A DNA stretch of 64,000 bases, from assembly GCA_948479395.1 (NCBI GenBank), contig CAOLUI010000002.1, forward strand, positions 1,282 to 65,281, in the 5' to 3' direction. Both the position numbers and the translations under genes were made by a program. Below are positions 36,460 to 58,447 of the stretch, piece after piece (the stretch's first letter is position 1; each line of letters opens with the position of its first letter). The notes under the pieces are model-generated. The model had not been told where the DNA came from. It worked only from the letters and a program-made list of their open reading frames with translations, and made no database searches. This DNA is from an uncultured Bacilli bacterium (lineage in GTDB: Bacteria > Bacillota_I > Bacilli_A > RF39 > UBA660).

Positions 36460-36463
36460 ATCG

Positions 36464-38096: not shown

Positions 38097-38105
38097 GAGG
38101 ATTGT

Positions 38106-38669: not shown

Positions 38670-38675
38670 ATAAGT

Positions 38676-41281: not shown

Positions 41282-41287
41282 TTATTT

Positions 41288-41545: not shown

Positions 41546-41559
41546 AAGGAGGTAGGTCT

Positions 41560-41757: not shown

Positions 41758-41805
41758 TTAATTGCTGATATATGCTTGGCGTTTTTACGTTTTGGAGATG
41801 ATATT

Positions 41806-42972: not shown

Positions 42973-42976
42973 AAAA

Positions 42977-43008
42977 AGTGGTAAGCTCCTTTGAACTTAC
43001 CATTTTTA
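42977..43008 (+). terminator. Rho-independent terminator after the RT gene
   Basis: tggtaagctcctttgaacttacca stem-loop followed by ttttta. Confidence 0.55.
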
Positions 43009-43013
43009 TGTGC

Positions 43014-44069: not shown

Positions 44070-44204
44070 ATATTTTTTAGAACGATATAATTTATTTACA
44101 CCATCTAAACCTTTGTAATAAGTAGAAAAGTACCATTTTCTACCATCCTTAGTTTGTTCTTTTGCTTTTGCTTGAAAAATTGCTATAAAACATCACCCTT
44201 TCTT

Positions 44205-45647
44205 TTATATTTCAATTTCATAATCACCTTTGTCTTTTATTTCGTTTTTATCATAATCATAATAATCGTTATTTATTGCATCTACTATATCTTCATAATC
44301 CTCTAATTTTTCTTTGGGTTTATCTCGTTTTAATAATTTATCTATTGCCTTACACATTTTTTTGAATAGACTTTTCCACTTATTAACTTCAGTTTCTAGT
44401 TTAGATTTTAGACTTTCAATATTGTTATTTAATATATCTACCAATTCACTTAATTTATTAATTTCTTCTTTTTGATCTTGAATAGTAGATTTTTGTTCTT
44501 TAATAATTTCATTCCTTTTTAGGAGTTCCTTATTGTTTTTAAAAGTCTTATTTTCTTCAGTCAGTTTATTTATTTCAATATCTTTATTAGCATTATCTGT
44601 AGATAAGATTATTATTTTATGCTCTAAGCCACGAGTATATTTTATGATTCTAAAAACATCTTCTTCTTTATAGCCACCAAATTTCCTTTTAACAGGATTT
44701 AAAAGTTCTTTATTACTATTATTATTTTCAATGTTTTTAAGACCATTTTTAGAGTTTTCTATAATCTTTAAGGTATTTTCCCTTTCTTTATTTAATTCTT
44801 CTAATTCAGCTTTTTTCTCGGCTATATCATAGTCTAATTTAGTTTGGTTTTCTTTATTAGCTCCTATATCACCACGATAAAGATTAAATCCTTTTTCCGT
44901 AATAAACTTATTGAAGTCATTTTGCATTTGGTGAAAAGATAGCTTACCACCCTTATCTTTCCAAAATTGATCGTTATTTAAAAAGTTACCTTCAATTTCA
45001 TCATAGATGATTTTTCCTTTGTCATCACGAAGTAATTTAGAAACTATAGAAGTAGTACCATCTTTCTTTTTTACTTCTTCTTTGATAATATTTTCATTTT
45101 TATCTTTTACAAAACATTTCCTTTTAACTTTATTAACAACAGGAATAAAATAGGCTTGCAAGTGTGGAGTATCTTCATCATAATGAACCTGAGCGAAAAG
45201 TATATTTTCTTCACCTACATAATTCTTTAAAAACTCTATACAACAGTCAAAAAAGTAGGTAACAGCATTTGGTATATCTTCTTTTGATTCTATAATGGGA
45301 ATCATTACTGCTTGTCCTTTTTTATCTCCTGTATGATAAGTTCTGCCACTATCTTTAAATTTCATTCCAAGTGATTGGAAAAACTCAGGTCCACTTGTAA
45401 ATATTACACCGTTTAATAGATTAGTATTAGGTCTATCTAGATATTCAATTTTTCTTTTCTTTAAAGTCGTTTTTACTTCTTGATATAAATTTGGTTGTTG
45501 AAGTGAAACATATTCGTAGTTATATATTGTTCTTTCAATATCGTAATTACCTGTACCTTTTCTTTTATTCATTTCAACTCCAATATTATAAAGATCATCT
45601 TTCTTATATTGAGTTTCTACTCGTACTACTTGTTTGCCATCATACAA
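44205..45647 (-). CDS. mob: MobV-family relaxase (module 2)
   Basis: HYDEDTPHLQAYF motif; very similar to 33889..35367 along its whole length. Confidence 0.8.
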   Translation of the reverse strand: MYDGKQVVRVETQYKKDDLYNIGVEMNKRKGTGNYDIERTIYNYEYVSLQQPNLYQEVKTTLKKRKIEYLDRPNTNLLNGVIFTSGPEFFQSLGMKFKDSGRTYHTGDKKGQAVMIPIIESKEDIPNAVTYFFDCCIEFLKNYVGEENILFAQVHYDEDTPHLQAYFIPVVNKVKRKCFVKDKNENIIKEEVKKKDGTTSIVSKLLRDDKGKIIYDEIEGNFLNNDQFWKDKGGKLSFHQMQNDFNKFITEKGFNLYRGDIGANKENQTKLDYDIAEKKAELEELNKERENTLKIIENSKNGLKNIENNNSNKELLNPVKRKFGGYKEEDVFRIIKYTRGLEHKIIILSTDNANKDIEINKLTEENKTFKNNKELLKRNEIIKEQKSTIQDQKEEINKLSELVDILNNNIESLKSKLETEVNKWKSLFKKMCKAIDKLLKRDKPKEKLEDYEDIVDAINNDYYDYDKNEIKDKGDYEIEI

Positions 45648-45679
45648 TTTTTATCCTCCTTTGCTTATGTTTCTTTAGT

Positions 45680-45745
45680 AGTAGAGGTCATTTATGACCT
45701 ATCTCACTAGGGCATAGCCCAATCGTGAGTTTAGGGACACGTCCC
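45680..45745 (-). other. Candidate oriT of module 2
   Basis: Same 32-bp block as module 1 (tgacctatctcactagggcatagcccaatcgt), followed by the palindrome tagggac-ac-gtcccta. Confidence 0.5.
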
Positions 45746-45793
45746 TAAAAACCCTGAATATTTTTTGTTCGCAAAAAATATATAATATAAATA

Positions 45794-46741
45794 TTAATAA
45801 TTAATCATAGGTTCTTCATATCTTGCAATATAAACTCTTTCATTAGATGTTCTTTTCTTTGTGATATGCAAACCTTCTTTTTCTAAAGTAATTAAATTAT
45901 TATTTAGTAGCTTACCAAATACTGATGGTTGTATCATTAAACCTAATGTACTGGTAATTTCAGATATAGTAAAAGAGAATTCTTTTTTCTTAATAGCATA
46001 ATTCAAAAATATTTTTAACTCGTTACTTAATTCTTCAATTTCCTCATTAACTACTTCAAATATTAAATTCTCTTTTCTTTTTAAAATAAAATCTCGACTT
46101 TCATAATCTCGACTTTGATAATTAAAATAAATTTTATCTTTTAAATTATTATCTAATTTTAAAGTGATAATTCCATCTACAGCACCATCAATAGCAGTAC
46201 TACCTAATGTAGTATTTGTTTTATTTAGATGATGAAGTAACAATACAGTAATTCCATACTTAGAGCATAATTTTCTATATTTAGGTAATACTATTTGTGC
46301 CATATCTTGGTAATTATATAAGTCAAATTTATCATTTATATAAACTCCATTAAACATATCAATTATTACAAACTTACCTTGATTGATATTAGCAAATTCA
46401 CTAATCTTTTCTTCTAAATCATCTAGGTTTAATTTCTTTTTATCTGATTCTTGTTCTATTAAAAAGAAATTGCTATTAAACTCTAAACTCATTTTCTTAA
46501 TACGATCAGCAATTTGCGAAGAATCCATTTCTGTGCTAATATATAAGACAGGTGATGGATTTACTTTAAATCCTAAAAATATTGTTCCTGTTGCAATAGC
46601 ATGAGCAAGTTGTAGAGCTAATAATGACTTGCCCACTTTAGGACGAGCAACTAAACAATATAAGCCATTAGATTTCATAAGACTATCAACTATGAAATCT
46701 TTTTTTGTGCAATTATTTAGTATTTCATTAATTGTTTTCAA
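45794..46741 (-). CDS. AAA_25/RepA-like P-loop ATPase (module 2)
   Basis: ARPKVGKSLLALQL Walker A and IIDMF Walker B; paralog of 35503..36459. Confidence 0.6.
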   Translation of the reverse strand: MKTINEILNNCTKKDFIVDSLMKSNGLYCLVARPKVGKSLLALQLAHAIATGTIFLGFKVNPSPVLYISTEMDSSQIADRIKKMSLEFNSNFFLIEQESDKKKLNLDDLEEKISEFANINQGKFVIIDMFNGVYINDKFDLYNYQDMAQIVLPKYRKLCSKYGITVLLLHHLNKTNTTLGSTAIDGAVDGIITLKLDNNLKDKIYFNYQSRDYESRDFILKRKENLIFEVVNEEIEELSNELKIFLNYAIKKKEFSFTISEITSTLGLMIQPSVFGKLLNNNLITLEKEGLHITKKRTSNERVYIARYEEPMINY

Positions 46742-46753
46742 ATTTTCTCCTTT

Positions 46754-46993
46754 CTAATTAATTCCTTCTTTTGACATCTTTTGAAGATAATTAATATTAA
46801 TTTTTAAATAATTCACAACTTCATTCATTGGCAACAATTTACTAGGTAATTGATAACCTTTGTTTAACAAATTAATTCTAATTTCACTTTTCAATTTAGA
46901 AGCACTATTTTTGCCTAAACCTGTAAGTTTTCTTAAGTCATTTAAGTCACACCATTGTTTAGAAATCAAATATAATGTTTCTTTTGCGGTCAT
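46754..46993 (-). CDS. Small DNA-binding protein (excisionase/HTH-like, module 2)
   Basis: 79 aa; paralog of 36464..36697 (MTA.ETL...SKQWC.L.DL). Confidence 0.4.
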   Translation of the reverse strand: MTAKETLYLISKQWCDLNDLRKLTGLGKNSASKLKSEIRINLLNKGYQLPSKLLPMNEVVNYLKININYLQKMSKEGIN

Positions 46994-47021
46994 TTATTCA
47001 CCTCACTTTCTATAACTAAAT

Positions 47022-47140
47022 GAGGTTCAAAAACCACTTATTTTTGAACCTCTCTATAATAATTATTACATATTTCTACTATATTAGTCAATATATAATC
47101 GTACAAAAAGTTCAAAAATAATAAAATTTATTGTTTTTAG
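47022..47140. promoter_or_regulatory. Divergent control region of module 2: 12-bp inverted repeat plus reiterated GTTCAAAA boxes
   Basis: gaggttcaaaaa-ccactta-tttttgaacctc at 47022-47052; additional gttcaaaa boxes near 47103 and 47128. Confidence 0.4.
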
Positions 47141-47157
47141 GTTCAAAATAGTATATA

Positions 47158-47706
47158 ATGAATATACGAGGTGTTTTTATGGAAGATCAAACTGTTGGTA
47201 TGTTAATAACAGAAGCTAGAGAGAAAAAAGGAATATCAAAAAATCAACTAGCAGAGTTATGTGGTGTAAGTCATACTGAAATAGCAAGAATTGAATCTGG
47301 AGAACGAGAAGTACCAAATCCTAAAACTTTAAGAAAGATAAGTAAATATATAGATGTAAACTTTAATGAATTAATGTATGCTGCTGGATTAGGTTTACAG
47401 CTTGGCCCTGAAAGTTCTTTATTAAAAGAATATCATTCTAGTTTAAGAGGTCCAAAATTAAAAGAAGCATTGGTAAATGCTTTCTGTAGTTTACAAAACT
47501 GTAATAAATTTGAAGAATTTTTAAAAAAGAAGTTAGAAGATAAAAAGTTATCAGAAGAAGAAAAAGAAATTGTTAGACAAACAAAAGAAGATAATTTTTA
47601 TCAAATTCTTACTATTTACGAAACTATAAACCAATTACAAAAAGCTTTAAGACATGAAAAAGTTGAGAATACTGATGAAGATAGTTTATTAGAAAATGAC
47701 AAATGA
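47158..47706 (+). CDS. XRE-family HTH transcriptional regulator (module 2)
   Basis: HTH motif QLAELCGVSHTEIARIESGER. Confidence 0.7.
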   Translation: MNIRGVFMEDQTVGMLITEAREKKGISKNQLAELCGVSHTEIARIESGEREVPNPKTLRKISKYIDVNFNELMYAAGLGLQLGPESSLLKEYHSSLRGPKLKEALVNAFCSLQNCNKFEEFLKKKLEDKKLSEEEKEIVRQTKEDNFYQILTIYETINQLQKALRHEKVENTDEDSLLENDK

Positions 47707-47771
47707 CAGATAGATAAGGGGACCTATATTTTAATGTCATAGTGTCATAGATACAAAGAGGTGATTAAAAA

Positions 47772-48299
47772 ATGGAAATTACTTTATTAAGACATGCTGA
47801 AAGTGAATATAATAAAATAGGATTATTGCAAGGTAGAATAGATTGTAATTTAAGTGATGAAGGTATAAGGCAAACTAGAGAAAGAGTTAAATCATTTGAT
47901 AGTAGTAGTTATGATGTATGTTTCACATCACCATTAAAAAGAACTCTATTAACAGCTCAAATATTAGTTCCTAATTTACCAATTATTTGTGATGATCGTA
48001 TTATCGAAAGAAGTTTAGGTGACTGGGAAGATACACCAACATCTGATGAAAAGAAATTTTTATTAAATAATATTAATTCAACTCCACCTAATGGGGAATC
48101 AACTTTAGAAATAACAAAAAGAGTTGAGAACTTTGTTGAATTCTTAAAAGATAACTATAGTGATAAAAGAGTTCTTATAGTTACTCATGCTGGAATTGTT
48201 TATGCAATTCAAGTAGCACTTGGTTTAGAAGTGAAACCTATAAACAATTTAGAAACATTAACTATTGATTTAGAAAATAAACACCAAATAAAAAGATAA
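47772..48299 (+). CDS. Histidine phosphatase superfamily (phosphoglycerate mutase-like) protein
   Basis: N-terminal LLRHAES RHG motif and a downstream catalytic His (VTHAG). Confidence 0.7.
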   Translation: MEITLLRHAESEYNKIGLLQGRIDCNLSDEGIRQTRERVKSFDSSSYDVCFTSPLKRTLLTAQILVPNLPIICDDRIIERSLGDWEDTPTSDEKKFLLNNINSTPPNGESTLEITKRVENFVEFLKDNYSDKRVLIVTHAGIVYAIQVALGLEVKPINNLETLTIDLENKHQIKR

Positions 48300-48318
48300 A
48301 ATATAAAAGGAGAATATT

Positions 48319-49158
48319 ATGGTAAAGGAAACTGAAAATTTAATTGAAATTTATAAATTATCTGATGAAGAACATAAAAAAGTTTTAGAATGTCTTAAAA
48401 ATAATTTATTTATTGGTAAGGTATCAGGAAAAACTCCATCAATAGTATTTGTTATAGGTCAGCCAGGTAGTGGTAAAACTACTTTTATAGAAAATTCCGA
48501 TTTATCTAATTATTTAATTATTAATTCTGATGAGTATCGTTATCTTAGCAAATATTCTAAAGAAATTTTATCTAAATATCCAACTCAGTATGCAAAACTT
48601 ACAAATTATGATGCACACTTATGGGGTGATGAATTATTTGATTATGCAATACAAAATGGATATTCTGTTTTGAGAGAAAAGGCTCCAATTGATTTTAGTT
48701 TATTAGAACTAATTAAGACTATATCAAATAATTTCAAAGTTATAATAAATGTGGTTGTTGAAGGAAATTTGGAAAGTTTATTAAGAACCAGAGAAAGATA
48801 TGAAAAAGAAATACTAGAAAACAATAATGCAAAATTATCCAGTATTGAAGCTCATAATAATTGTTATAACTTATTACCAACCTTTATATCGATGTGTATA
48901 TCACTTGGTATAAAAGTTAATTATGTTGTAAAAGGAGATATAATTTTGGCTTTAAATAATCCTCTAGAGCTATTACAAAATATTAGAGCAGAGAGTAATG
49001 AAAAAGCTAGTCTTAATTATAAAGAGAGAATAGATAAAATTAAAGAATCTATGATAAATAGAAATGCACCTGAAGATCAGTTTAATGAACTTCAGAAAAT
49101 TGAAGATATATATATTCAGGTAAATGGTGTTAATAACAATAAAATATCTAAAAAATAA
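48319..49158 (+). CDS. P-loop kinase, zeta-toxin/AAA_33-like
   Basis: Walker A VIGQPGSGKTTF near the N-terminus, as in zeta-toxin-type kinases. Confidence 0.5.
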   Translation: MVKETENLIEIYKLSDEEHKKVLECLKNNLFIGKVSGKTPSIVFVIGQPGSGKTTFIENSDLSNYLIINSDEYRYLSKYSKEILSKYPTQYAKLTNYDAHLWGDELFDYAIQNGYSVLREKAPIDFSLLELIKTISNNFKVIINVVVEGNLESLLRTRERYEKEILENNNAKLSSIEAHNNCYNLLPTFISMCISLGIKVNYVVKGDIILALNNPLELLQNIRAESNEKASLNYKERIDKIKESMINRNAPEDQFNELQKIEDIYIQVNGVNNNKISKK

Positions 49159-50112
49159 TATAATGAAAGCGAGTGAAATTATGAGAAAAGCATATTCTGT
49201 AATTACAAATTTTAGTGATGAAGCAATTAGAATATTAAAAGATAATAATATTGATTTGACAATAAGAAATTCTGAAGTTGTTCCTAATTCCGAAGAATTA
49301 ATTACTTTACTTCAAGAATATGACATTATAATAATTGGAGTAAAAACTATTGTTAAAAAAGAAATTCTTGAACATATAGATTCTCATAAAGTAATAGCAA
49401 CTTTATCTATTGGATTAGATCATATAGATAATGAGGTAAAAAAATCTAATTTAGTTACAGTTTTAAATATAAAGGATGCTAATACAGTTTCTGTAGCAGA
49501 GCATATTTTCTCCTTTATCCTTTCGCTTAATAAAAGAATAACAGAATCAAATGACTTGGTATTACAAAAGAAAGGACATAAAAAGAATTTGCATGAAAGA
49601 CCTGAAGATATAAGTGGTAAGAAATTAGTTTAATAGGTGCAGGAAATATCACAAAAGAAGTTATAAAAATAGCTAAAATATTTAATATGGAAATATCTTG
49701 TTTTACTAGAACTCTTCATAAACACAACGATTTATTAAATTTAGGAATTAATTTTAAAACCTTAGATGAAATATTAAAAGAAAGTGATATTATTAATGTA
49801 AGTATTCCTTTAACAGATGAAACTAGAAATTTAATATCTAAAGATAAGATTGATTTAATAAAATCAACAGCAACATTTATTAATACTTCTAGAACTGATA
49901 TAGTAGATACAAAAGCATTAATAGAAAAGGCAGATGAATATAATACTTTCTATGTAGGACTTGATATAGATTTAGGTGGGTATGAAGAAATATTTTCTAA
50001 ATTTAGAAATAATGTGATTGTAACTCCTCATATAGCGGGTGTATCAAAACAAGCTATAACAAGAATGGATAATGAACTTGCAAACAAGATTGTAAAAATA
50101 GTTAGGAGATGA
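49124..50112 (+). pseudogene. D-isomer-specific 2-hydroxyacid dehydrogenase, disrupted by a -1 frameshift
   Basis: ORFs 49124..49633 and 49687..50112 are the N- and C-halves of one dehydrogenase. The GxGxxG NAD motif is split: ...GKKLV* then IGAGNITKEV in the next frame. Restoring one G near 49629 gives GKKLGLIGAGNI. Confidence 0.6.
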
Positions 50113-50116
50113 TGGT

Positions 50117-51235
50117 ATGAATCTAAATGAAATAAATCAAAGAATTAGTGATAGATTAGATTGCTTTTATTGGCAGACGGATAGAAAAATAAGTGCTAAA
50201 AAAGCAGCCATGATATGGAAAGATAGACATTCTGCTATAACTAATGAAGAATTGTTAGATATGATTAATGCAGAATTAAAAGAAGATAAATTAGCATACA
50301 TCAAACCATTTGATGAAAATGCCCAAACAAGTTTAGGAAATGTAAATTCAGTAAGAGTTGGAGTTTTAGAAAGTGGAAAAGAGGTAATAATAAGATGTCA
50401 TCCAAAAGGTATAAGAAATGGTTATTTCTATGCTGAAAGTTTAGCCTCTCAAATTGCATTAAAAAATGGACTTCCTGCTTATAAAACTTATTATATTCAC
50501 GAATTAGAAAATGAAAGTGATATCTCTTATCAAGTTATAGAGAAATTAGAGGGGGATACAGTTCAATTTAGTTTAAAAGAACATCCTGAAAATGAAGAAC
50601 AACTTGTTATTGAAATGGGAAAAACTATGGCAAGACTTCATAAAATAAGAGTTAATGGATTTGGTCCTTTTGATAATGAACAAGCTAAGAATGGTAATTT
50701 AAAAGGGTTACATAAATCACTAAAAGATTCAATAAATGCAGGATTAGAAGAAAATCTTGAAAGATTAGTTACATACAATATTTTAACCAAAGAAGTAGCA
50801 GATAAAATGAAAAAACTATTTGATGATAACGAATTACTTAACTCAGATACATCAGTTTTAATTCATAATGATTTTGCTGATTGGAATTTATTAACTGATG
50901 GTAATACTATAACAGGTATTATAGATTGGGATGAATGTGTTGCAGGAAATCCTATTCAAGAAATAGCTTGTTGGTCAACATTCTTTGATCCAGAAAGAAT
51001 CAAACCATTTTTAAAAGGATATTTTAGTGAAACAGCAGTATATGATAATTTTGATGAGATGTTTCAATTAATGAGATTAAGATATACCATTTCAAAAATG
51101 GCTTTAAGAATCAAAAGATACACATATGAGCAAACACCATTTTTAAAAAGTATGATTGAAAAGGGAGAAAAACATTTAGAAGAGTTATCAGAAATATTTA
51201 ATCTTAATGAAAATATTAATATTCAGAATAAATAA
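50117..51235 (+). CDS. Phosphotransferase enzyme family (APH/choline-kinase-like) protein
   Basis: Catalytic loop HNDFADWNLL and metal-binding IDWDE, typical of APH-fold kinases. Confidence 0.65.
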   Translation: MNLNEINQRISDRLDCFYWQTDRKISAKKAAMIWKDRHSAITNEELLDMINAELKEDKLAYIKPFDENAQTSLGNVNSVRVGVLESGKEVIIRCHPKGIRNGYFYAESLASQIALKNGLPAYKTYYIHELENESDISYQVIEKLEGDTVQFSLKEHPENEEQLVIEMGKTMARLHKIRVNGFGPFDNEQAKNGNLKGLHKSLKDSINAGLEENLERLVTYNILTKEVADKMKKLFDDNELLNSDTSVLIHNDFADWNLLTDGNTITGIIDWDECVAGNPIQEIACWSTFFDPERIKPFLKGYFSETAVYDNFDEMFQLMRLRYTISKMALRIKRYTYEQTPFLKSMIEKGEKHLEELSEIFNLNENINIQNK

Positions 51236-51247
51236 AGGAGGAAAATT

Positions 51248-51613
51248 ATGAATAAGGAAAAATATGAAAGTTGGACAAAAGAATTTATGGAATCTTGGAA
51301 AGAATTGGATTGGGAAAGAACTTTAAATACATTAGATAAAAATGTTGAATATTATGAAAATCCAATCGATAAACCATGTAGTAATTTTGAAGAAGTAACA
51401 AACTTATGGAATGTCGTTGCTGATAATCAAAAAGATATAGATTATAAGTTTGAAATTGTTGCTTTTAATGAAAATACTTGTATTATTAATTGGCAAATGA
51501 CTAGAGTAATGACAAAAATAAATGAAAAACAAGAAATTGATGGTATATTTCAAATCTCATTAAATAATGAGGGTAAATGTACATATTTTAAACAATGGAG
51601 ATTTACAAGATAA
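51248..51613 (+). CDS. NTF2/SnoaL-like small protein
   Basis: 121 aa with an alpha+beta barrel-like pattern; weak assignment. Confidence 0.3.
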   Translation: MNKEKYESWTKEFMESWKELDWERTLNTLDKNVEYYENPIDKPCSNFEEVTNLWNVVADNQKDIDYKFEIVAFNENTCIINWQMTRVMTKINEKQEIDGIFQISLNNEGKCTYFKQWRFTR

Positions 51614-51772
51614 TTAGTTAATTAAAAATTAAAATTTTAGGTAATAATTAGGTATTAAAATTCTAGATTTTTATTAAAATTTTCTAATTATTATTAATTA
51701 AAAATAAGCAAAATTAAACTAAAAATAAGGGAAAAGTGAAAAATTGTTTCAAAAAGAACTGAAAAAATTTCG

Positions 51773-51810
51773 CCCCCTGAAGAGTCAGCGAAAGCTGGCT
51801 CACTTTTATT
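51773..51810 (+). repeat. Partial copy of the sRNA 3' end / att-like motif
   Basis: cgCCCCCTGAAGAGtcagcgaaagctggctcacttttatt. Confidence 0.5.
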
Positions 51811-51899
51811 ATTATAAAATCTTAATATGGTAAAATCCTAAGAAAAATTTACTAGATATGTTATAATTATTTTAGAATGAATGAAGAAGTTAAGATAGT

Positions 51900-52040
51900 T
51901 GGCAAGAATCATTAAATAATAAATCTTTAAACGATCTTGAAAAAGGAAAATTGACCAAAAAGGACAATATGAGAAATCAGCAAATTTTGACTGATGTCAA
52001 GCCGCTTTTATATATGGATCATTAGGATGTAAAAAATGTA
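51900..52040 (+). pseudogene. Remnant of an XRE-family regulator gene (third, decayed module)
   Basis: Translates to ESLNNKSLNDLEKGKLTKKD..., homologous to the SLNDLENGK segment of 36864..37388. It lacks the N-terminal helix and a start codon. Confidence 0.45.
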
Positions 52041-52139
52041 TGAAACTTAGTCGAGAATAGGATGGCAAATTAAGCAATATAACAAAAGAAAAGTTTACAT
52101 AAATGTAAAAAGTTTGATTAGTATATAGGAAGTAAAAAT

Positions 52140-52650
52140 ATGATAATACAAATAGATATAGATAACACACTTACAGATATTGAAGATGATTTAATGAATG
52201 CGGCATTTGATTATGCAAAAAGTTTAAATAAAACTATAAATACTAATCGTTTAGAATCAATGGATGATAACAATGATGGAAATAAATATCAAAAAATATT
52301 TGCTTTTAATTATGAAGAACTTAAATATTTTTTAAAAGAGATATAAGAAAGAATTACTGATAAAGATAAACCAAGATACTTAGCTTCAGAAATAATAGAA
52401 TTACTTCATTTAGAAGGGAAAAAAATAATTATATTACAACAAGATATTTAGAATTTCATGATAATCCATATAAACAAAGTGAAATGTGGTTAAAAAAGAA
52501 CAATATTTATTATGATAAATTAATTGTTAATGTTAGAAAAAAAGGTGAAATTTGTAAACAGGAAAAAATAGATTTATTTATAGATGATAATATTAGTAAT
52601 TGTTTAGATGTAACAAAATATGGAATAAAAACAATTATCTTAAATAAGTA
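52140..52650 (+). pseudogene. 5'(3')-deoxyribonucleotidase (NT5C-like HAD) gene, frameshifted
   Basis: The N-terminal HAD motif IQIDIDNTLTD is in ORF 52140..52346. The C-terminal half (EMWLKKNNIYYDKLI...IDLFIDDN) is readable only in another frame at about 52430-52650. Confidence 0.5.
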
Positions 52651-53277
52651 AAAAATAAAAGATAATATGATAGTATCATTCGATAATTGGAAAGATATTT
52701 ATGATTATATAAAAAATGAAGGTGAATAAAATATGATTATGTTTTAAAATTAGGGTTTGATAAGAAATAGAAAATTATATTCAAAATATTAAAAATACTT
52801 CATAAGAAAATAATATATCAGATAAAGAAAAAATTGGAGACTAATATCACTATTTATATATTTGTGAAGTAGAAGACAAAAGTCCAGTGAAAGGACTATT
52901 AAAAAAAAATAGATAGTAAATTAAAAAAATAATAAGTTAAATATGACAAAGAAAATTTGGAAATATTTCCTTAAACTAAGCGTTATGATTGTCACTTATA
53001 AAATTGATTAGTCGCGACAAATCAATTTGAAAGAAATAGTCGTGTATGAAGAAATTACTGAAAATTTAGAAGAGCAATTAGCAGATAAAGAACTATTAGA
53101 AATAAAAAAGCATATTGTTCATCTTAGGTTTTTTTTAGGACTATACGTATCGATAAAAAATAAATGTAAATTTTGATGAAATTAAATTAAAGATTCTTAT
53201 TTTTATGTAACTATTATAACAATTTTTAAAACTTTAAAATTATATTTTTAATCAAATAAACAAATTAAAATTTAATA

Positions 53278-53318
53278 CCACCTGAAGAGTCAACAAAATC
53301 TAGCTCATTTTTTTTTGA
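53278..53318 (+). repeat. Divergent copy of the sRNA 3' end / att-like motif (possible attR)
   Basis: taCCACCTGAAGAGtcaacaaaatctagctca followed by T9. Confidence 0.45.
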
Positions 53319-53424
53319 AGCTTATATAATGATAATTTCAAATTAAAGTTATATAATAAAATGATTTTTAATTATCAATTGATATTCAAAAGAAAATACG
53401 TTATATTAGCAATGGTGATAGACT

Positions 53425-53730
53425 GTGGAAATAACAGATATATTAAAGCTAACAAAAATATCCATGAATTATGGAACATATGATATGGTTCCCACAGTTA
53501 AAAATCGTGTGTCAAAGCGGAAGTATGGGTTATCACAATTTGATATTGAAGATTATATAGCGAGTTTAGAAGAAGAAAATTTGTATAAGGGCCCTGAACC
53601 AGATAGGAATTGCCCAGGAGAGGAACTATTTATTTTTAAAAAAGAGATAGTAGCCAATGTTATTTTTTATACTAAATTAAAATATAAGAATAATCAGATA
53701 AAGATATTGTCTTGTCATGAAGATGAATAA
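53425..53730 (+). CDS. MqsR-family toxin-like protein (mRNA interferase)
   Basis: 101 aa. The central block KYGLSQFDIEDYIASLEEENLYKG aligns with MqsR ELGLDFDGMCNVIIGLSESDFYKS, and the C-terminal KILSCHEDE aligns with LIVSFKEK. Confidence 0.5.
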   Translation: MEITDILKLTKISMNYGTYDMVPTVKNRVSKRKYGLSQFDIEDYIASLEEENLYKGPEPDRNCPGEELFIFKKEIVANVIFYTKLKYKNNQIKILSCHEDE

Positions 53731-53744
53731 TTAGGAGTTATATA

Positions 53745-54701
53745 ATGGAGAATAGAGAAAATTTAAGAGTTAGAAAAATAAAAACCAAAGTAAAAGAAAA
53801 GGAAATTGAATTTGAAGAATATTATGTGATTGATCCATATACAAAAGAAGAAATATTTGATAGAAATATTGAATTAGAAAATGATTTAAGATTATATGAT
53901 ATTTATAAAAAACAAGTTAATTTATTAACTTCTGAAGAAATTAAAGCAATAAGAAAAAAATATGAAATGAATCAAAAAGAATTTGCTTTAGCAATTGGTC
54001 TTGGAGAAATAACAATTCATCAATTTGAAAATGGTTCTATTCAAACTGACTTTGTAGATTCGATTATAAGATTAAGTGAGGATCCTGATATAATGTATAA
54101 TTTTTTAAATAAAAATCAATATAATTTTTCGGAAGAAGAATATTTAAAATTTTTGAATAAGGTTTATTTACTCAAAAATTTAAAAGAACATAAAATTGCT
54201 CATTTTAATTTAAATGAAGTAGGTAATTTAGATTTTAGAACAGAAGATGTTTTATCTGTGGCGAATCAATTAATAGTTAAATATAATAATAGAGTTGATC
54301 AATTGAGCGAAAAATATGATATTGAAGATGTGTGCAGTGTAGCTGAATATATAACCCCTTTAAAACTTCAAAAATTATTATATTATATTCAAGGGCTATC
54401 AGCAAGGGTGTATGGTAAGCCAGCATTTAATAATCATATTTATGCTTGGTCATATGGTCCTGTTATTAGTGATGTATATCATGTGTATAAAGGAAGAAAT
54501 TTAATAACAACACCTAATGATAATATTAAAATAAGTGAAGGTTTGAATAAAATTATAGATATTGTTATTTCAAGTTATGGTCAAATAGAAGCAGAAAAAT
54601 TAATTGATTTAACTCATCAAGAAGAGCCATGGATTAATACACCAAAAGATCATATTATAGATTTCGATTTAATTAAAAAATATTTTGAACAAGTTTATTA
54701 A
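53745..54701 (+). CDS. Antitoxin-like protein: MqsA-type HTH fused to a Panacea (DUF4065) domain
   Basis: HTH segment LTSEEIKAIRKKYEMNQKEFALAIGLGEITIHQFENG. The C-terminal block QKLLYYIQGLSARVYGKPAFNNHIYAWSYGPVISDVY is the Panacea/DUF4065 signature. Confidence 0.65.
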   Translation: MENRENLRVRKIKTKVKEKEIEFEEYYVIDPYTKEEIFDRNIELENDLRLYDIYKKQVNLLTSEEIKAIRKKYEMNQKEFALAIGLGEITIHQFENGSIQTDFVDSIIRLSEDPDIMYNFLNKNQYNFSEEEYLKFLNKVYLLKNLKEHKIAHFNLNEVGNLDFRTEDVLSVANQLIVKYNNRVDQLSEKYDIEDVCSVAEYITPLKLQKLLYYIQGLSARVYGKPAFNNHIYAWSYGPVISDVYHVYKGRNLITTPNDNIKISEGLNKIIDIVISSYGQIEAEKLIDLTHQEEPWINTPKDHIIDFDLIKKYFEQVY

Positions 54702-54800
54702 AAATTAAAATAAAAAAAATATAAGCTTATATTTAATTGAGTTTATTTTTAAGATAGTTTAGATTTTTTTTAATTATTAATTATAATATTATGAAAAAAA

Positions 54801-55502
54801 TTAGATATGATTTTTAAATATATTTAATTTTTCTTTTTTATTTAAAGTTGCAAGTAATACACCATTTTGGAAATTAATTTTTTTCTTTTTTAGTTCATTT
54901 TGTAGCCATTTTTCATCTTTGTGGAATTTTTTTAAGTTTTCTGATTTGATTTTGCCATCAATTATTATTTCATTACAAAAAGTTTGCTTAGTGTCTTTTT
55001 TTAATTCGGTTTTAAAATCAATTGGAGTACTTGTTTGATATTCTTCTTTAGGCAAAAAACTTATTTTCCCACTGGTTTCTAAAATGGCATAATTTAAAAC
55101 ATTTAAATCATAATATCCATTAAGTCTTGCTTGTTCAATAAATTTGTATATAGGTATTTTTGTTTTTTGTAAATTTTTAAAATTAAATTCCCCGTTTTCC
55201 ATTAAAATTGTAGGTTTACCATTTAATAAGTTATTGATTTCTTCATTTTTAATGGACAAATAAGATAGAATAAAACCAGTAAGGCCAAATATTAAAATTG
55301 CTGTAATGCCATATAAAAAGTTTTCTTCTAAAGTTAAAATAATATCTGCAGCAATACTTCCGATAGTTATACCTATTATGTAATCATATATTGTAAATTG
55401 AGAAATATGTTTTTTTCCAAGTAATTTAGTGGTTAATAATAAGGTTAAAATTGCCAAGATAGAGCGCATGCCTATTCTACTAATTTCATTTAAATTAATC
55501 AA
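54801..55502 (-). CDS. DUF421/YetF-family membrane protein
   Basis: N-terminal TM pair, then the DUF421 core and a C-terminal soluble domain; 233 aa. Confidence 0.65.
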   Translation of the reverse strand: MINLNEISRIGMRSILAILTLLLTTKLLGKKHISQFTIYDYIIGITIGSIAADIILTLEENFLYGITAILIFGLTGFILSYLSIKNEEINNLLNGKPTILMENGEFNFKNLQKTKIPIYKFIEQARLNGYYDLNVLNYAILETSGKISFLPKEEYQTSTPIDFKTELKKDTKQTFCNEIIIDGKIKSENLKKFHKDEKWLQNELKKKKINFQNGVLLATLNKKEKLNIFKNHI

Positions 55503-55673
55503 TTTATATCACCATTAATTAGTATGGAAAGATATTTTAAAAGTTATTCTTTAAGCGATTATATTATAAAAATGAAAAAGAACTATTTTATAGTTAAAAT
55601 AGTATTTAATAAATTAGATTTTGTAAATTTTTTTAATTTAGCCGAAAAAAAATATTACTTCGAAAAAAAATTG

Positions 55674-55682
55674 TGCTATAAT
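55674..55682 (+). promoter_or_regulatory. Extended -10 promoter (TGcTATAAT) for the MATE gene
   Basis: tgctataat lies about 30 nt upstream of an aggaga RBS. Confidence 0.4.
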
Positions 55683-55720
55683 GAGTGAGTTTTAAAATTA
55701 AAAATATTTTTTAGGAGATC

Positions 55721-57688
55721 ATTATACAAGAATTAAATTTAAGTAAAGAGAAAATTGGAAAATTAATTTTAACCTTTTCAATACCTTGTGTAATAAGTAT
55801 GTTAATTAATTCTATTTATAATATAGTTGATCAAATTTTTATTGGAAAAGGAGTAGGAACTCTTGGTAATGCGGCAACAAATATAATTTTTCCTTTAATA
55901 ATAATATTTAATGCCACAGCTGGTCTTATAGGAAATGGCGCTTCAGCTAATCTTTCTTTAAAATTGGGAGAAGGAAAAAAAGAGGAAGCTGGCAAAAATA
56001 TTGGGCAAGCTATCGTCTTAACATTTTTAATATCTATTGTCTTATGTTTATTAGCATACATATTTTTACCTCAATTAGTTTATTTATTTGGCTGTACGAA
56101 GAGTGTTTATCCTTATGCGCTTATGTATGGAAGAATTATTATAATTGGGGCGCCATTTATGATTATATATTCTGTTTTATCTAGTATTATTAGGGCAGAT
56201 GGTTCACCTAAATACTCGATGATGATGCTTGTTATAGGCGCTATTATTAATATTATTTTGGATCCTATTTTTATTTTTGTTTTTGATATGGGAGTAAAAG
56301 GTGGAGCTTTAGCAACAGTAATAGGACAAATTGTATCTTTTGTTATTGCTATTTTTTATCTTAAAAAGACGAAATCAGTTAATTTAAATAAAAAAGATTT
56401 TAAGTTAAATAAAAATATTTTCAGAATATTATCTTTAGGAATTTCTTCATTTATTACTCAGATAACAATTTTAGTTTTGTTTATATTTATGAATAATGTT
56501 ATGACAAAATATGGAGCTTTATCAAAATATGGAGCCGATATTCCATTATCTGTTTATGGTGTAATATCTAAGATTAATAGTTTATTTATTTCAACAGTTT
56601 TAGGGGTTTCTATTGGAGCTCAACCAATTATTGGATTTAATTATGGTGCAGGAAAAGAATTAAGAGTTAAGGAAACGTTAAGAAAAGTGTTAATAATAAA
56701 TTTTGGAGTGGGAGTATTTTTTAATGTATTATTTATTTTATTTCCTGAACAAATAGCTAATGTTTTTATTTCTAAAAGTGATCCAGCTTATAGATTATTT
56801 ATAGAATTTGCAGTTTTAATGTGTCGTTCTTTTTTGTTGGTTTGTTCTTTGAATGCTTTAGAAATGACAACTAGTATTACAATTCAATCTTTAGGTAAGG
56901 TAAAAAAATCAACAGTTGTGTCTTTTATTAGACAAATTTTACTTTTAATTCCCATTTCTTTATTTTTAGGAATTGTTTTAAATAAGGGTATATATGGTAT
57001 TTTATATGCAGGAGCTATAGCGGATATAATATGTTTTATTATTACAATATTTATATTTAGATCAGAATATATAAAATTAGGAAGAAATGAAATTAAAGAA
57101 GAAAAAAAGGAAACAAAAGTTTTAGAAGTAAATGAGAAAAATATTAATTTTTCAAAAGTTATTACTATTGCACGAGACTATGGTAGTGGTGGAAGATATG
57201 TGGCACAATTATTAGCTAAAGAATTAGGAATTCATTGTTATGATAAAGAAATAATAAGACTTACTGCTAAAGAGTCTGGTTTTACTAAGGATTTTGTGAC
57301 TCAATCAGAAGAAATTAAAAAAAATTATTATGTTATTGATGATAGAATGTTTATTGCTGAAACAAAGGTTATTAAAAATTTAGCAAAAAGTTCTTGTGTA
57401 ATTGTTGGAAGATGTGCTGATTATATATTAAAAGATAAAAAAAATGTAGTAAAAGTATTTTTGTATAGTGATGATAGTGATAAAGAAAAACGGGCAGTTA
57501 AATATTATAATTTAAATAAAAAGATAGCTAAGAAGAAAATTAATCAAATAAATAAAGAACGAGCTAAACATTATGAGTATTATACTAATAGGAAATGGAA
57601 AGACGTTAATAATTATGATATTATGTTGAATGTTGATAGTTATGGAGTAGAAAAAACAGCTAAAATAATTGCCAATATTTTAAGATAA
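55721..57688 (+). CDS. MATE-family efflux transporter fused to a C-terminal cytidylate kinase-like (Cytidylate_kin2) domain; non-ATG start
   Basis: About 12 TM helices. The frame stays open upstream of the first ATG (55799) to an ATT/ATA at 55721/55724, right after an aggaga RBS; the conserved MATE N-terminus ..LNLSKEKIGKLILTFSIP is encoded there. C-terminal domain ITIARDYGSGGRYVAQLLAKELGIHCYDKEII matches the Cytidylate_kin2 signature. Confidence 0.7.
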   Translation: MIQELNLSKEKIGKLILTFSIPCVISMLINSIYNIVDQIFIGKGVGTLGNAATNIIFPLIIIFNATAGLIGNGASANLSLKLGEGKKEEAGKNIGQAIVLTFLISIVLCLLAYIFLPQLVYLFGCTKSVYPYALMYGRIIIIGAPFMIIYSVLSSIIRADGSPKYSMMMLVIGAIINIILDPIFIFVFDMGVKGGALATVIGQIVSFVIAIFYLKKTKSVNLNKKDFKLNKNIFRILSLGISSFITQITILVLFIFMNNVMTKYGALSKYGADIPLSVYGVISKINSLFISTVLGVSIGAQPIIGFNYGAGKELRVKETLRKVLIINFGVGVFFNVLFILFPEQIANVFISKSDPAYRLFIEFAVLMCRSFLLVCSLNALEMTTSITIQSLGKVKKSTVVSFIRQILLLIPISLFLGIVLNKGIYGILYAGAIADIICFIITIFIFRSEYIKLGRNEIKEEKKETKVLEVNEKNINFSKVITIARDYGSGGRYVAQLLAKELGIHCYDKEIIRLTAKESGFTKDFVTQSEEIKKNYYVIDDRMFIAETKVIKNLAKSSCVIVGRCADYILKDKKNVVKVFLYSDDSDKEKRAVKYYNLNKKIAKKKINQINKERAKHYEYYTNRKWKDVNNYDIMLNVDSYGVEKTAKIIANILR

Positions 57689-57745: not shown

Positions 57746-58447
57746 ATGCCGCAAAAGGATTTTGGAAATTTTATCAAAGAAATTAGAAAAAAGAATAATT
57801 TAACCCAAAAACAATTAGCTGAAAAATATAATGTTACTTATCAAGCAGTTAGTAAATGGGAAAATGGTAAAAATATGCCTGATATGCTACTTATAAAACA
57901 AATGAGTACAGATTTTGGAATAAGTATTGAGGAATTATTAGATGGAGATTATAAAAAAAGTAAAAAGAAAAAAATCTCATTACTAATTATCTTGGGAATA
58001 TTTATTATTATTTTTTTGGGTGTAATTTTAATATTTATTTTTAAACAATCACAAAAAGAAAATAATTTTCAATTCAAGACTTTATCAAGTGAATGTAAGA
58101 ATTTTGATATTTCAGGTAATATTTCTTATAATGAAAATAAATCGGCGATATATATTACTAATATTAAATATTGTGGGAAAGATGATAGAGAAGAATATAA
58201 AGAGATAGAGTGCATTTTATATGAATCTAATAATAATATCGAAAGAAAAGTTAGCACATTTAAATCAAAACAGAAAGTAAAGTTGGAAGATTTTTTACAG
58301 AATGTTACTTTGTCAATTGATAATTATAAAAAAATTTGTAAAGAATATAAAGAAGGTAGTTTATACCTTTCTATAAATGCGACTGATTTTAATAATAAAA
58401 TTAGAACTTATAAAATTCCTTTAAAGTTTGATAGCTGTTCAAAATAA
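57746..58447 (+). CDS. Membrane-anchored XRE-family regulator (HTH, one TM helix, extracellular domain)
   Basis: HTH LTQKQLAEKYNVTYQAVSKWENGK, then the TM helix ISLLIILGIFIIIFLGVILIFIF, then a Cys-containing C-terminal domain. Confidence 0.65.
   Translation: MPQKDFGNFIKEIRKKNNLTQKQLAEKYNVTYQAVSKWENGKNMPDMLLIKQMSTDFGISIEELLDGDYKKSKKKKISLLIILGIFIIIFLGVILIFIFKQSQKENNFQFKTLSSECKNFDISGNISYNENKSAIYITNIKYCGKDDREEYKEIECILYESNNNIERKVSTFKSKQKVKLEDFLQNVTLSIDNYKKICKEYKEGSLYLSINATDFNNKIRTYKIPLKFDSCSK

What the first reader, a model, noticed from the sequence alone, without database searches (positions are those of the whole stretch)
53425..54701. MqsR-like toxin paired with an HTH-Panacea (DUF4065) fusion antitoxin
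The 101-aa ORF aligns with the MqsR core (GL..FD.....I.SL.E..YK ... I.S..E.E). The downstream 318-aa protein has an MqsA-like HTH but no zinc-ribbon; instead it carries a C-terminal Panacea domain (YYIQG...AWSYGPVISDVY). Panacea domains neutralize very diverse toxins, so an MqsR-family toxin paired with an HTH-Panacea antitoxin would be an informative hybrid pair. It sits at the right edge of the island next to an att-like repeat.
Basis: partly seen in the sequence, partly recalled or inferred. Interest (0 to 1): 0.55.

Follow-up and report, generated by a model that had tools for sequence, protein, structure and literature searches.

The report
MqsR toxin with zinc-free MqsA-Panacea antitoxin
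This is a genuine two-gene toxin-antitoxin module (an MqsR-type RNase toxin followed by an MqsA-like antitoxin that carries a Panacea domain), but this pairing has already been described and tested experimentally in other bacteria, so it is a new member of a known kind and not a new hybrid.

Summary
Both ORFs exist as described, at 53425-53730 (101 aa) and 53745-54701 (318 aa). The small protein models confidently and its best solved-structure match is E. coli MqsR; 32 of 37 family members hit Pfam MqsR_toxin. The large protein has a strong Panacea domain, an HTH, and an N-terminal β-domain. That domain is homologous to the MqsA zinc-binding domain (hhalign 98.3%) but has lost all four cysteine ligands. 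So "no zinc ribbon" is only half right.

The pair is conserved: 21 of 22 species-level loci have the toxin directly upstream. A 12-bp palindrome, TATCAATTGATA, overlaps the −35 hexamer in every such locus and is a likely operator.

MqsR:PanA pairs are published. MqsR-like is the commonest recognisable PanA-linked toxin (Kurata 2022). The B. fungorum and L. rossiae pairs were validated, and in B. fungorum the zinc-binding domain neutralises the toxin, not Panacea (Ernits 2023).

The module is not island cargo. It lies 1.65 kb outside a 19.2-kb tandem mobilizable-element insertion and is identical in an island-free contig.

Verdict: real and well supported, a new member of a known kind, modest interest.

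The parts
53258..53315 (+). Terminator-like repeat upstream of the operon. Core CCACCTGAAGAGT (53278-53290) is a one-mismatch copy of the 13-bp junction repeat of the upstream island, followed by a weak hairpin and a T-run. It marks the left boundary of the TA transcription unit.
   Evidence: Repeat family D11; 13-mer search.
53373..53384 (.). Putative operator: perfect 12-bp palindrome TATCAATTGATA. The family consensus is the 20-bp AAATTATCAATTGATAATTT; the window copy matches 16 of 20 when extended to 53369-53388.
   Evidence: It is the only exact copy in the 64-kb window. It lies 50-66 nt upstream of the toxin start in 18 of 18 family upstream regions, although flanking sequence has diverged. 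The exact 12-mer is present in all 21 species-level loci that have this pair and in none of 59 other loci. Binding by the antitoxin HTH is inferred.
53379..53407 (+). Predicted sigma-70-type promoter: −35 TTGATA (53379-53384, the right arm of the palindrome), 17-nt spacer, −10 TATATT (53402-53407).
   Evidence: Consensus scan, 10 of 12 matches. Equivalent −10 boxes (TATACT, TATAAT, TACAAT) sit at the same distance in homologous loci. This is a consensus match only; the scan found no more promoter-like sites than shuffled sequence gives.
53414..53419 (+). Shine-Dalgarno-like GGTGAT, 5 nt upstream of the toxin GTG start.
   Evidence: Sequence. GGTGAT is conserved at the same position in nearly all homologous loci.
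53425..53730 (+). Toxin gene: 101-aa MqsR-family (RelE/ParE superfamily) putative endoribonuclease with a GTG start. Conserved putative active-site residues are Y82 (E. coli Y81) and H98 (at the position of E. coli K96); K55 (E. coli K56) is present here.
   Evidence: Pfam; 94 homologs and alignment A1; AF2 model pLDDT 95.9; Foldseek top hit 3hi2_D, TM 0.69/0.76, rmsd 2.2 Å; residue mapping.
53733..53737 (+). Strong Shine-Dalgarno AGGAG, 7 nt upstream of the antitoxin ATG.
   Evidence: Sequence.
53745..53924 (+). Antitoxin aa 1-60: cysteine-free derivative of the MqsA zinc-binding domain (β-hairpin aa 7-29 plus helix aa 40-57). It is the inferred toxin-neutralising domain.
   Evidence: TIGR03830 aligns aa 8-117 to profile positions 12-123 of 127 (61.2 against a 61.8 cutoff). 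No Cys in any clade member, yet 13 invariant residues. More distant relatives carry 2×CxxC. Domain-only hhalign gives probability 98.3%, E=2.3e-14. AF2 secondary structure.
53925..54119 (+). Antitoxin aa 61-125: Xre/MqsA-type helix-turn-helix DNA-binding domain.
   Evidence: HTH_3 and MqsA_antitoxin hits. Foldseek matches HigA2 C-terminal domain (TMt 0.85, rmsd 1.2 Å), HipB and C-proteins. The family profile aligns to the E. coli MqsA HTH.
54120..54344 (+). Antitoxin aa 126-200: helical linker between the HTH and Panacea.
   Evidence: AF2 model, helices 130-149 and 169-190. It is the least conserved part of alignment A2.
54345..54701 (+). Antitoxin aa 201-318 plus stop codon: Panacea (DUF4065/SocA_Panacea) domain.
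   Evidence: PF13274, E=5.3e-20, 72.9 bits against a 25.7 cutoff; phrog_1281 and phrog_10390; invariant EYIT.LK.QKLLYYIQ and W.YGP motifs.

Best explanation
A chromosomal type II toxin-antitoxin operon of the published MqsR:PanA kind. One promoter drives a toxin-first bicistron. The 101-aa product is an MqsR-family endoribonuclease of the RelE/ParE fold. The 318-aa product is an MqsA-type antitoxin extended by a C-terminal Panacea domain. Shown here: the toxin fold and family, the four-part antitoxin architecture, the loss of all zinc ligands in a conserved N-terminal domain that is still homologous to the MqsA zinc-binding domain, tight conservation of the gene pair, and a family-wide palindrome over the −35 hexamer. 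Inferred: (1) the N-terminal β-domain binds and neutralises the toxin, as the zinc-binding domain does in E. coli MqsA and B. fungorum PanA; (2) the HTH dimer binds TATCAATTGATA and represses the operon; (3) the weak toxin start (GTG, with TTG, GTG or ATG across the family) against the strong AGGAG plus ATG of the antitoxin keeps the antitoxin in excess; (4) Panacea does not neutralise here and is an accessory, possibly sensory or dimerising, domain as Ernits et al. proposed.
For: Toxin: AF2 pLDDT 95.9. The best PDB match is E. coli MqsR 3hi2_D (TM 0.69/0.76, rmsd 2.2 Å, probability 1.0), followed by BrnT, YafQ, YoeB and ParE. 32 of 37 family members hit PF15723 and no other family. Y82 is invariant and aligns to E. 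coli Y81; H98 is invariant. Brown 2009 shows K56, Q68, Y81 and K96 matter for toxicity (PMC2791442). Antitoxin: Panacea at 72.9 bits, HTH, and MqsA family at 61.2 against 61.8; AF2 pLDDT 90.9; N-terminal domain against CxxC-bearing relatives, hhalign 98.3%. Pairing: 21 of 22 assessable species-level loci have the toxin ORF directly upstream, usually with a 4-nt overlap or abutting. Operator. Mechanistic precedent: isolated ZBD and ZBD-HTH of B. fungorum PanA neutralise MqsR, while Panacea alone and HTH-Panacea do not; L. rossiae MqsR:PanA was validated (PMC10440598). MqsA-N alone neutralises MqsR in E. coli (PMC2791442). In two relatives (L009, L018) the toxin ORF is truncated while the antitoxin is intact. 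That is the usual decay pattern of an active toxin.
Against: This protein's own Pfam MqsR score (19 bits) is below the gathering cutoff, and sequence-profile searches do not reach MqsR in the PDB. Two of the four E. coli toxicity residues are not conserved as such (K96 is His; Q68 cannot be aligned), and K55 varies across the family. No toxin-antitoxin complex could be modelled, so the neutralising domain is assigned by analogy only. Without zinc the N-terminal domain might not bind the toxin the same way. Whole-model Foldseek did not return MqsA itself for the antitoxin. Toxicity, RNase activity and DNA binding are all untested.
Confidence: 0.8

Rival explanations
1. The Panacea domain itself is the neutraliser of the MqsR-like toxin. 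The cysteine-free N-terminal domain would then be a vestige that no longer binds the toxin.
For: Panacea neutralises some toxins directly, e.g. B. choladocola PanT (PMC10440598). The zinc ligands that stabilise the E. coli MqsA N-domain fold (PMC8808172) are absent here.
Against: In the nearest studied architecture, Panacea alone and HTH-Panacea do not neutralise MqsR. The N-terminal 60 residues are among the most conserved in the protein, with 13 invariant positions, and model confidently as a folded β-hairpin plus helix. A vestige would not show this.
Confidence: 0.12
2. The module's biological role is anti-phage abortive infection. Panacea senses a phage cue and releases or activates the RNase, so it is not a passive stabilisation or stress module.
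For: Ernits et al. favour a sensory role for Panacea in PanAs that have a dedicated neutralising domain. Relatives are encoded in prophages and phages, including bIL311 orf20/orf21, phrog_10390 and Marinitoga phage MPV1. The locus sits beside an integration hotspot.
Against: Neither protein gave a TA-specific PADLOC hit; only generic HTH models matched. No trigger is known. This rival concerns biological role and is compatible with the molecular mechanism in the best explanation.
Confidence: 0.25
3. The pair is an addiction or stabilisation cargo of the adjacent integrative mobilizable element.
For: It lies close to the island and next to an att-like repeat copy at 53278. The island carries its own Zeta-toxin-like gene, so TA cargo would be plausible.
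Against: The island-free contig L005 matches window 29610-32558 and 51773-56950 at 100% identity and contains the TA pair, so the 19.2-kb insertion ends 1.65 kb upstream of it. GC content does not change across the locus.
Confidence: 0.04
4. The toxin is catalytically dead or repurposed, and the locus now acts only as a transcription regulator.
For: K96 is replaced by His, Q68 has no clear counterpart, and K55 is not invariant in the family.
Against: H98 and Y82 are invariant in all PanA-linked MqsR sequences examined, including relatives of the validated B. fungorum type. His serves as a catalytic residue in sister toxins such as YoeB and YafQ (own knowledge). Strong purifying conservation across 94 homologs.
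Confidence: 0.08

Closest known systems
Bacillus fungorum MqsR:PanA (ZBD-HTH-Panacea antitoxin), Ernits et al. 2023, PNAS (PMC10440598); the same type on B. thuringiensis megaplasmids
   Same: Toxin-first operon; MqsR-fold toxin with the conserved Tyr and the C-terminal S-x-H-E motif; antitoxin domain order of N-terminal β-domain, HTH, helical linker, Panacea.
   Different: About 30% antitoxin identity. This antitoxin lacks both CxxC pairs, and the first-CxxC segment is deleted. The toxin is shorter (101 aa against about 139 aa) and lacks the C-terminal YP(L)xY tail.
Lactobacillus rossiae MqsR:PanA (validated; Ernits 2023, Fig. 7A) and the lactococcal prophage bIL311 orf20/orf21 pair
   Same: Firmicutes MqsR plus HTH-Panacea pair in toxin-then-antitoxin order. 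bIL311 Orf21 and all its Lactobacillales relatives are also cysteine-free in the N-terminal domain.
   Different: Only about 30% identity to bIL311 Orf21. I could not retrieve the L. rossiae sequence, so whether the validated protein is cysteine-free is unknown.
E. coli MqsR/MqsA (YgiU/YgiT; PDB 3HI2, 3GN5, 3O9X)
   Same: Toxin fold (TM 0.69/0.76); toxin-first gene order; antitoxin with an N-terminal toxin-binding β-domain followed by an HTH; a palindromic operator in its own promoter.
   Different: There is no zinc site, so the zinc- and oxidation-gated ClpXP degron described for E. coli MqsA (PMC8808172) cannot work in the same way. An extra 190-aa linker plus Panacea is present. The operator sequence differs: TATCAATTGATA here, against the ACCT-N-AGGT type in E. 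coli (own knowledge). K96 is replaced by His.
Caulobacter SocA (type VI antitoxin, Panacea domain)
   Same: Shares the Panacea domain (NF047745 partial hit).
   Different: 55 bits against a 190-bit cutoff. No SocB-like toxin is present. The SocA mechanism, a proteolytic adaptor, is not implied here.

Membership tests
MqsR toxin family (Pfam PF15723; RelE/ParE superfamily) | Sequence match to the family model above its curated cutoff | tested here: inconclusive
   This protein scores 19 bits, E=0.0019, against a 26.2 cutoff, but over profile positions 5-95 of 95. 32 of 37 close family members match PF15723 at E<=0.01 (best 7e-07), and no other family is matched.
MqsR toxin family (Pfam PF15723; RelE/ParE superfamily) | MqsR/RelE-type fold (N-terminal helices packed on an antiparallel β-sheet) | tested here: met
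   AF2 pLDDT 95.9. The Foldseek top hit is E. coli MqsR 3hi2_D (TM 0.69/0.76, rmsd 2.2 Å, 90 columns), followed by BrnT, YafQ, YoeB and ParE.
MqsR toxin family (Pfam PF15723; RelE/ParE superfamily) | Residues needed for toxicity in E. coli MqsR (K56, Q68, Y81, K96) | tested here: inconclusive
   Y81 maps to Y82, invariant. K96 maps to H98, an invariant His. K56 maps to K55, present here but variable in the family. Q68 falls in an unalignable segment (residues from PMC2791442).
MqsR toxin family (Pfam PF15723; RelE/ParE superfamily) | Toxin gene precedes an MqsA-type antitoxin gene in one operon | tested here: met
   14-nt gap here. The same order holds in 21 of 22 species-level loci.
MqsR toxin family (Pfam PF15723; RelE/ParE superfamily) | Growth arrest through mRNA cleavage (GCU preference) | not testable with these tools
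   Needs expression and RNA cleavage assays.
MqsA antitoxin family (TIGR03830 CxxCG_CxxCG_HTH; Pfam PF15731) | N-terminal zinc-binding domain with two CxxC pairs | tested here: not met
   No Cys in aa 1-60 of this protein or of any of the 34 clade members. More distant relatives have 2×CxxC spaced 34 aa apart.
MqsA antitoxin family (TIGR03830 CxxCG_CxxCG_HTH; Pfam PF15731) | N-terminal domain homologous to the MqsA zinc-binding domain | tested here: met
   Domain-only hhalign, 34 Cys-free against 41 CxxC sequences: probability 98.3%, E=2.3e-14, 55 columns. 'CxxCGEE' aligns with 'DxxTGEE'.
MqsA antitoxin family (TIGR03830 CxxCG_CxxCG_HTH; Pfam PF15731) | Family model score above the curated cutoff | tested here: not met
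   TIGR03830 scores 61.2 against 61.8 bits, a narrow miss, with aa 8-117 on profile positions 12-123 of 127. PF15731 scores 20.6 against 30.
MqsA antitoxin family (TIGR03830 CxxCG_CxxCG_HTH; Pfam PF15731) | Xre-type HTH following the N-terminal domain, and a palindromic operator in its own promoter | tested here: met
   HTH at aa 61-125. A conserved palindrome overlaps the −35 hexamer in all family loci. Actual binding was not tested.
PanA (Panacea-domain antitoxins; Kurata 2022) | Panacea/DUF4065 domain (PF13274) above cutoff | tested here: met
   72.9 bits against 25.7, E=5.3e-20.
PanA (Panacea-domain antitoxins; Kurata 2022) | Conserved two-gene neighbourhood with a putative toxin | tested here: met
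   21 of 22 loci. It matches Kurata's cluster T2, 'MqsR superfamily' toxin with 'HTH' N-terminal-domain PanA in T|A order.
PanA (Panacea-domain antitoxins; Kurata 2022) | Antitoxin neutralises the cognate toxin and forms a complex with it | not testable with these tools
   Needs co-expression rescue and pull-down assays.
SocA (type VI antitoxin) | Equivalog-level match and a SocB partner | tested here: not met
   NF047745 scores 55.3 against 190 bits. The partner here is MqsR-like, not SocB.

The most novel reading that the evidence does not exclude
The cysteine-free N-terminal domain defines a distinct, widespread branch of MqsA-type antitoxins in gut Bacilli/'Tenericutes' MAGs and Lactobacillales. 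This branch would fold and bind MqsR without zinc. It would therefore have lost the zinc- and oxidation-gated ClpXP degron that controls E. coli MqsA, with control of toxin release passed to the appended Panacea domain acting as the sensor. If so, comparing zinc-free and zinc-bound MqsR:PanA systems would be a natural experiment on what Panacea does when it is not the neutraliser.
Probability: 0.2. Interest if true: 0.5.

Novelty: new member of a known kind. Interest (0 to 1): 0.27.

Why it matters
It matters little as a discovery. The MqsR:PanA pairing, its gene order and its domain logic are all published and validated. Three things are new here. First, the clade's antitoxin keeps the MqsA toxin-binding domain but without any zinc ligand. 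Second, the same holds for Lactobacillales and prophage relatives. Third, a precisely conserved 12-bp palindrome gives a ready-made operator for testing autoregulation. These could help groups working on the unresolved role of Panacea in antitoxins that have a separate neutralising domain. The context result also corrects the picture: the module is chromosomal flank beside an integration hotspot and is not island cargo.

Tried and rejected
1. Sequence searches of the toxin against PDB chains, as a single sequence and as the family profile, found no MqsR and only chance hits. Profile against the E. coli MqsR single sequence gave only a 26-residue local match. The fold search was needed.
3. The family profile against PDB reached E. 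coli MqsA only through the HTH.
4. I looked at natural short forms (N-terminal domain plus HTH, without Panacea: P0253, P0235) to see whether they pair with MqsR. They are orphans with no toxin upstream, and one is possibly a split gene, so they are uninformative.
5. I tried to learn whether the validated L. rossiae PanA is cysteine-free. The sequence was not retrievable, and the last homolog search returned other Lactobacillales, all cysteine-free, but not L. rossiae.
6. 'Island cargo' is rejected by the island-free contig.
7. SocA type VI membership is rejected.
8. The second MqsA-like Pfam hit 3 kb downstream (57746-58447) is a membrane-anchored HTH protein and not a TA component.
9. No intrinsic terminator was detected after the antitoxin gene.
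10. Both structure-prediction jobs went on monomers, so no toxin-antitoxin complex model was made.
Full report
OBSERVATION. A 101-aa ORF runs 53425-53730 (+, GTG start) and a 318-aa ORF runs 53745-54701 (+, ATG start), 14 nt apart. The longer GTG-initiated toxin reading is supported in two ways: the first 13 residues are conserved in full-length homologs, and a GGTGAT Shine-Dalgarno-like element sits 5 nt upstream and is conserved across homologous loci. The antitoxin has a strong AGGAG 7 nt before its ATG. Both genes end in TAA.

TOXIN. On its own the 101-aa protein matches only Pfam MqsR_toxin. The score is below the curated cutoff (19 against 26.2 bits, E=0.0019), but the match spans the whole profile. 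A database search found 94 homologs, mostly from uncultured low-GC 'Bacilli' MAGs. Of 37 aligned members, 32 hit PF15723 (best E=7e-07) and none hits any other family. Sequence searches against PDB chains failed. The AlphaFold2 model is very confident (pLDDT 95.9, pTM 0.87). Its best solved-structure match is E. coli MqsR itself (3hi2_D, TM 0.69/0.76, rmsd 2.2 Å over 90 columns, probability 1.0), followed by RelE/ParE-superfamily toxins BrnT, YafQ, YoeB and ParE.

I recalled the E. coli MqsR sequence from memory and verified it as identical to 3hi2_B. I then made a bridging alignment that included divergent MqsR ORFs found next to CxxC-bearing PanAs. Brown et al. found four residues important for toxicity (K56, Q68, Y81, K96; PMC2791442). 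Y81 maps to Y82, invariant in every sequence. K96 maps to H98, an invariant His in all PanA-linked MqsRs. K56 maps to K55, present here but variable in the family. Q68 cannot be placed. In the longer L039-type toxins the conserved Tyr falls at position 97, which fits the 'catalytic Y97' of B. fungorum MqsR; that correspondence is an inference.

ANTITOXIN. There are four parts. (i) Residues 201-318 are a strong Panacea domain (PF13274, 72.9 bits against 25.7). (ii) Residues 61-125 are an Xre/MqsA-type HTH. (iii) Residues 126-200 are a helical linker. (iv) Residues 1-60 are the interesting part. NCBIfam's MqsA-family model TIGR03830 (CxxCG_CxxCG_HTH) aligns aa 8-117 to profile positions 12-123 of 127 and misses its cutoff by 0.6 bit (61.2 against 61.8). 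So the region before the HTH aligns with the zinc-ribbon part of MqsA, yet it contains no cysteine. None of 34 clade members (57-84% identity) has one, although 13 positions in this segment are invariant.

An exhaustive representative search (7,804 hits at E<=0.001) shows a clean split. The closer full-length representatives, roughly 34% identity and above, are cysteine-free. The more distant ones, about 30%, carry the canonical two CxxC motifs 34 residues apart. A profile-profile comparison restricted to the N-terminal domain (34 Cys-free against 41 CxxC sequences) gives probability 98.3%, E=2.3e-14 over 55 columns. The second 'CxxCGEE' aligns with 'DxxTGEE', and the segment that carries the first CxxC is missing. 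The AF2 model (pLDDT 90.9) folds this region as a β-hairpin (aa 7-29) plus a long helix (aa 40-57).

PAIR CONSERVATION AND REGULATION. I examined species-representative genomes carrying a full-length cysteine-free PanA. In 21 of 22 assessable loci an MqsR-family ORF lies directly upstream, typically overlapping by 4 nt or abutting; the 22nd locus is at a contig edge. In two loci (L009, L018) the toxin ORF is truncated while the antitoxin is intact. Several CxxC-bearing relatives also have a detectable MqsR ORF upstream.

Upstream of the toxin, all 18 extractable regions share a palindrome with consensus AAATTATCAATTGATAATTT, 50-66 nt before the start codon, even where the flanks have diverged completely, as in Erysipelothrix sp. 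L027. The exact 12-mer TATCAATTGATA occurs once in the 64-kb window, at 53373-53384. It occurs in all 21 species-level loci with this pair and in none of the other 59 fetched loci. Its right arm, TTGATA, is the −35 hexamer of a predicted promoter (TTGATA, 17 nt, TATATT; 53379-53407). This is what an autorepressing HTH dimer would need. The conservation is shown; the binding is inferred. Toxin start codons across the family are TTG, GTG or ATG, whereas the antitoxin here has a strong SD plus ATG. That is consistent with translational bias toward the antitoxin in a toxin-first operon (inference).

WHAT IS KNOWN. Kurata et al. 2022 (PMC8832971) report that among PanA-linked putative toxins the most common recognisable domain is MqsR-like (n=90), and that 343 PanAs carry an N-terminal HTH. 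Their dataset lists a cluster (T2) of 'MqsR superfamily' toxins with 'HTH' PanAs in T|A order. Ernits et al. 2023 (PMC10440598) validated B. fungorum and L. rossiae MqsR:PanA pairs, both annotated 'Panacea; ZBD (MqsA); HTH'. They showed by truncation that the ZBD or ZBD-HTH neutralises MqsR, whereas Panacea alone or HTH-Panacea does not, and they proposed that Panacea is a sensor in such antitoxins. RefSeq already names such neighbours 'MqsR family toxin' and 'antitoxin SocA domain-containing protein', for example on a B. thuringiensis megaplasmid whose antitoxin has both CxxC pairs.

The cysteine-free form is not confined to this clade. Orf20/Orf21 of the lactococcal prophage bIL311, and all the Lactobacillales relatives I retrieved, are cysteine-free too. 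I could not determine whether the validated L. rossiae protein is cysteine-free. Vos et al. 2021 (PMC8808172) showed that zinc occupancy and oxidation gate ClpXP degradation of E. coli MqsA through a cryptic degron in the N-domain. A zinc-free domain cannot use that switch in the same way; this is an inference and forms the basis of the 'novel case'.

CONTEXT. The window is about 24% GC throughout, with no compositional break at the locus and no tRNA genes. Upstream lie two tandem, related integrative mobilizable elements. Each has an integrase, a Mob_Pre relaxase, a RepA-like AAA_25 ATPase, an HTH regulator and cargo genes. Contig L005 carries the identical TA pair but no island. It matches window 29610-32558 and 51773-56950 at 100% identity. 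The insertion is therefore 32559-51772 (19.2 kb), flanked by an exact 13-bp direct repeat, CCCCCTGAAGAGT. The TA operon starts 1.65 kb to the right of it, beyond a segment that holds only short ORF fragments. A third copy of the 13-mer with one mismatch lies at 53278, 147 bp upstream of the toxin. All three copies form the 5' flank of a hairpin plus T-run. The TA pair is thus chromosomal flank next to an integration hotspot and not island cargo. Downstream neighbours are a DUF421/YetF membrane protein and a MatE-cytidylate-kinase-like fusion.

MECHANISM. The most likely account (confidence about 0.8 for the module identity, about 0.6 for the domain-level assignment) is as follows. One promoter drives mqsR-like, then panA. 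The toxin is an MqsR-type endoribonuclease using Y82 and H98. The antitoxin's zinc-free N-terminal β-domain binds and neutralises it. The HTH dimer binds TATCAATTGATA over the −35 hexamer and represses the operon. Panacea is accessory, possibly sensory or dimerising. Rivals are that Panacea is the neutraliser (0.12), that the biological role is abortive infection with Panacea as the trigger sensor (0.25, compatible with the core mechanism), that the toxin is dead (0.08), and that the pair is island cargo (0.04, contradicted).

VERDICT. The finding is real and its identification is essentially correct, but the system is a new member of a known, experimentally validated kind. The zinc-free N-terminal domain and the conserved operator are useful details and not a new category. 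Interest is about 0.27.

Noticed in passing
window 32559-51772 (junction repeats at 32546-32558 and 51773-51785): A 19.2-kb insertion relative to the otherwise identical contig L005. It consists of two tandem, related integrative mobilizable elements, each with an integrase, a Mob_Pre relaxase, a RepA-like AAA_25 ATPase and an HTH regulator. Paralogous segments lie about 10.3 kb apart at 70-100% identity. The insertion is flanked by an exact 13-bp direct repeat, CCCCCTGAAGAGT.
   Followed up: partly
window 32546, 51773 and 53278: The 13-bp att core is the 5' flank of a hairpin plus T-run (terminator-like) at all three sites. The third copy, with one mismatch (CCACCTGAAGAGT), sits 147 bp upstream of the toxin gene. 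The segment between copies 2 and 3 (51786-53277) holds only short ORFs at 52140-52346 (starts MIIQIDIDNTLTD, a HAD-like DxDxT motif by eye) and 52484-52651, neither of which hits Pfam. It may be a decayed gene or the remnant of an older element.
   Followed up: partly
window 48319-49158 (+): The second mobilizable element carries a Zeta_toxin-family protein (PF06414, E=6.5e-20). It follows a histidine phosphatase gene and an HTH regulator. No epsilon or PezA-type antitoxin was identified. This could be the island's own TA-like or kinase cargo.
   Followed up: no
window 49124-49633 and 49687-50112 (+): A D-2-hydroxyacid dehydrogenase is split into separate catalytic-domain and NAD-binding-domain ORFs, so it is a likely pseudogene or frameshift in island cargo. 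It is followed by an APH-family phosphotransferase (50117-51235) and a SnoaL-like protein.
   Followed up: no
window 35372-35431 and 45695-45754: A GC-rich 60-nt segment, 85% conserved between the two elements (TGACCTATCTCACTAGGGCATAGCCCAATCGT.AGTTTA.GG...CCCT.AAAA.CC), lies between the relaxase and RepA-like genes. It stands out in a 24%-GC background and could be an oriT or a structured RNA.
   Followed up: no
window 57746-58447 (+): A 233-aa protein with an N-terminal Xre-type HTH (also a weak MqsA_antitoxin hit, 25.6 bits), a predicted membrane segment and a Cys-containing C-terminal domain. It looks like a membrane-anchored regulator and not a TA component. A one-mismatch copy of the operator 12-mer at 58311-58322 lies inside it, probably by chance.
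   Followed up: partly
loci L009 and L018 (toxin ORF); L030, L031, L033 (antitoxin): Decay states of the module in other species. In L009 and L018 the toxin ORF is truncated (profile positions 1-80 and 2-66) beside an intact antitoxin. In L030, L031 and L033 only antitoxin fragments remain (aa 1-144, 1-140 and 56-147 of the query), with no toxin and no operator motif.
   Followed up: partly
window 55799-57688 (+): A 629-aa fusion of a MatE efflux transporter with a C-terminal cytidylate-kinase-like domain (PF13189, E=3e-47). This is an unusual architecture, and it is conserved in all related contigs.
   Followed up: no
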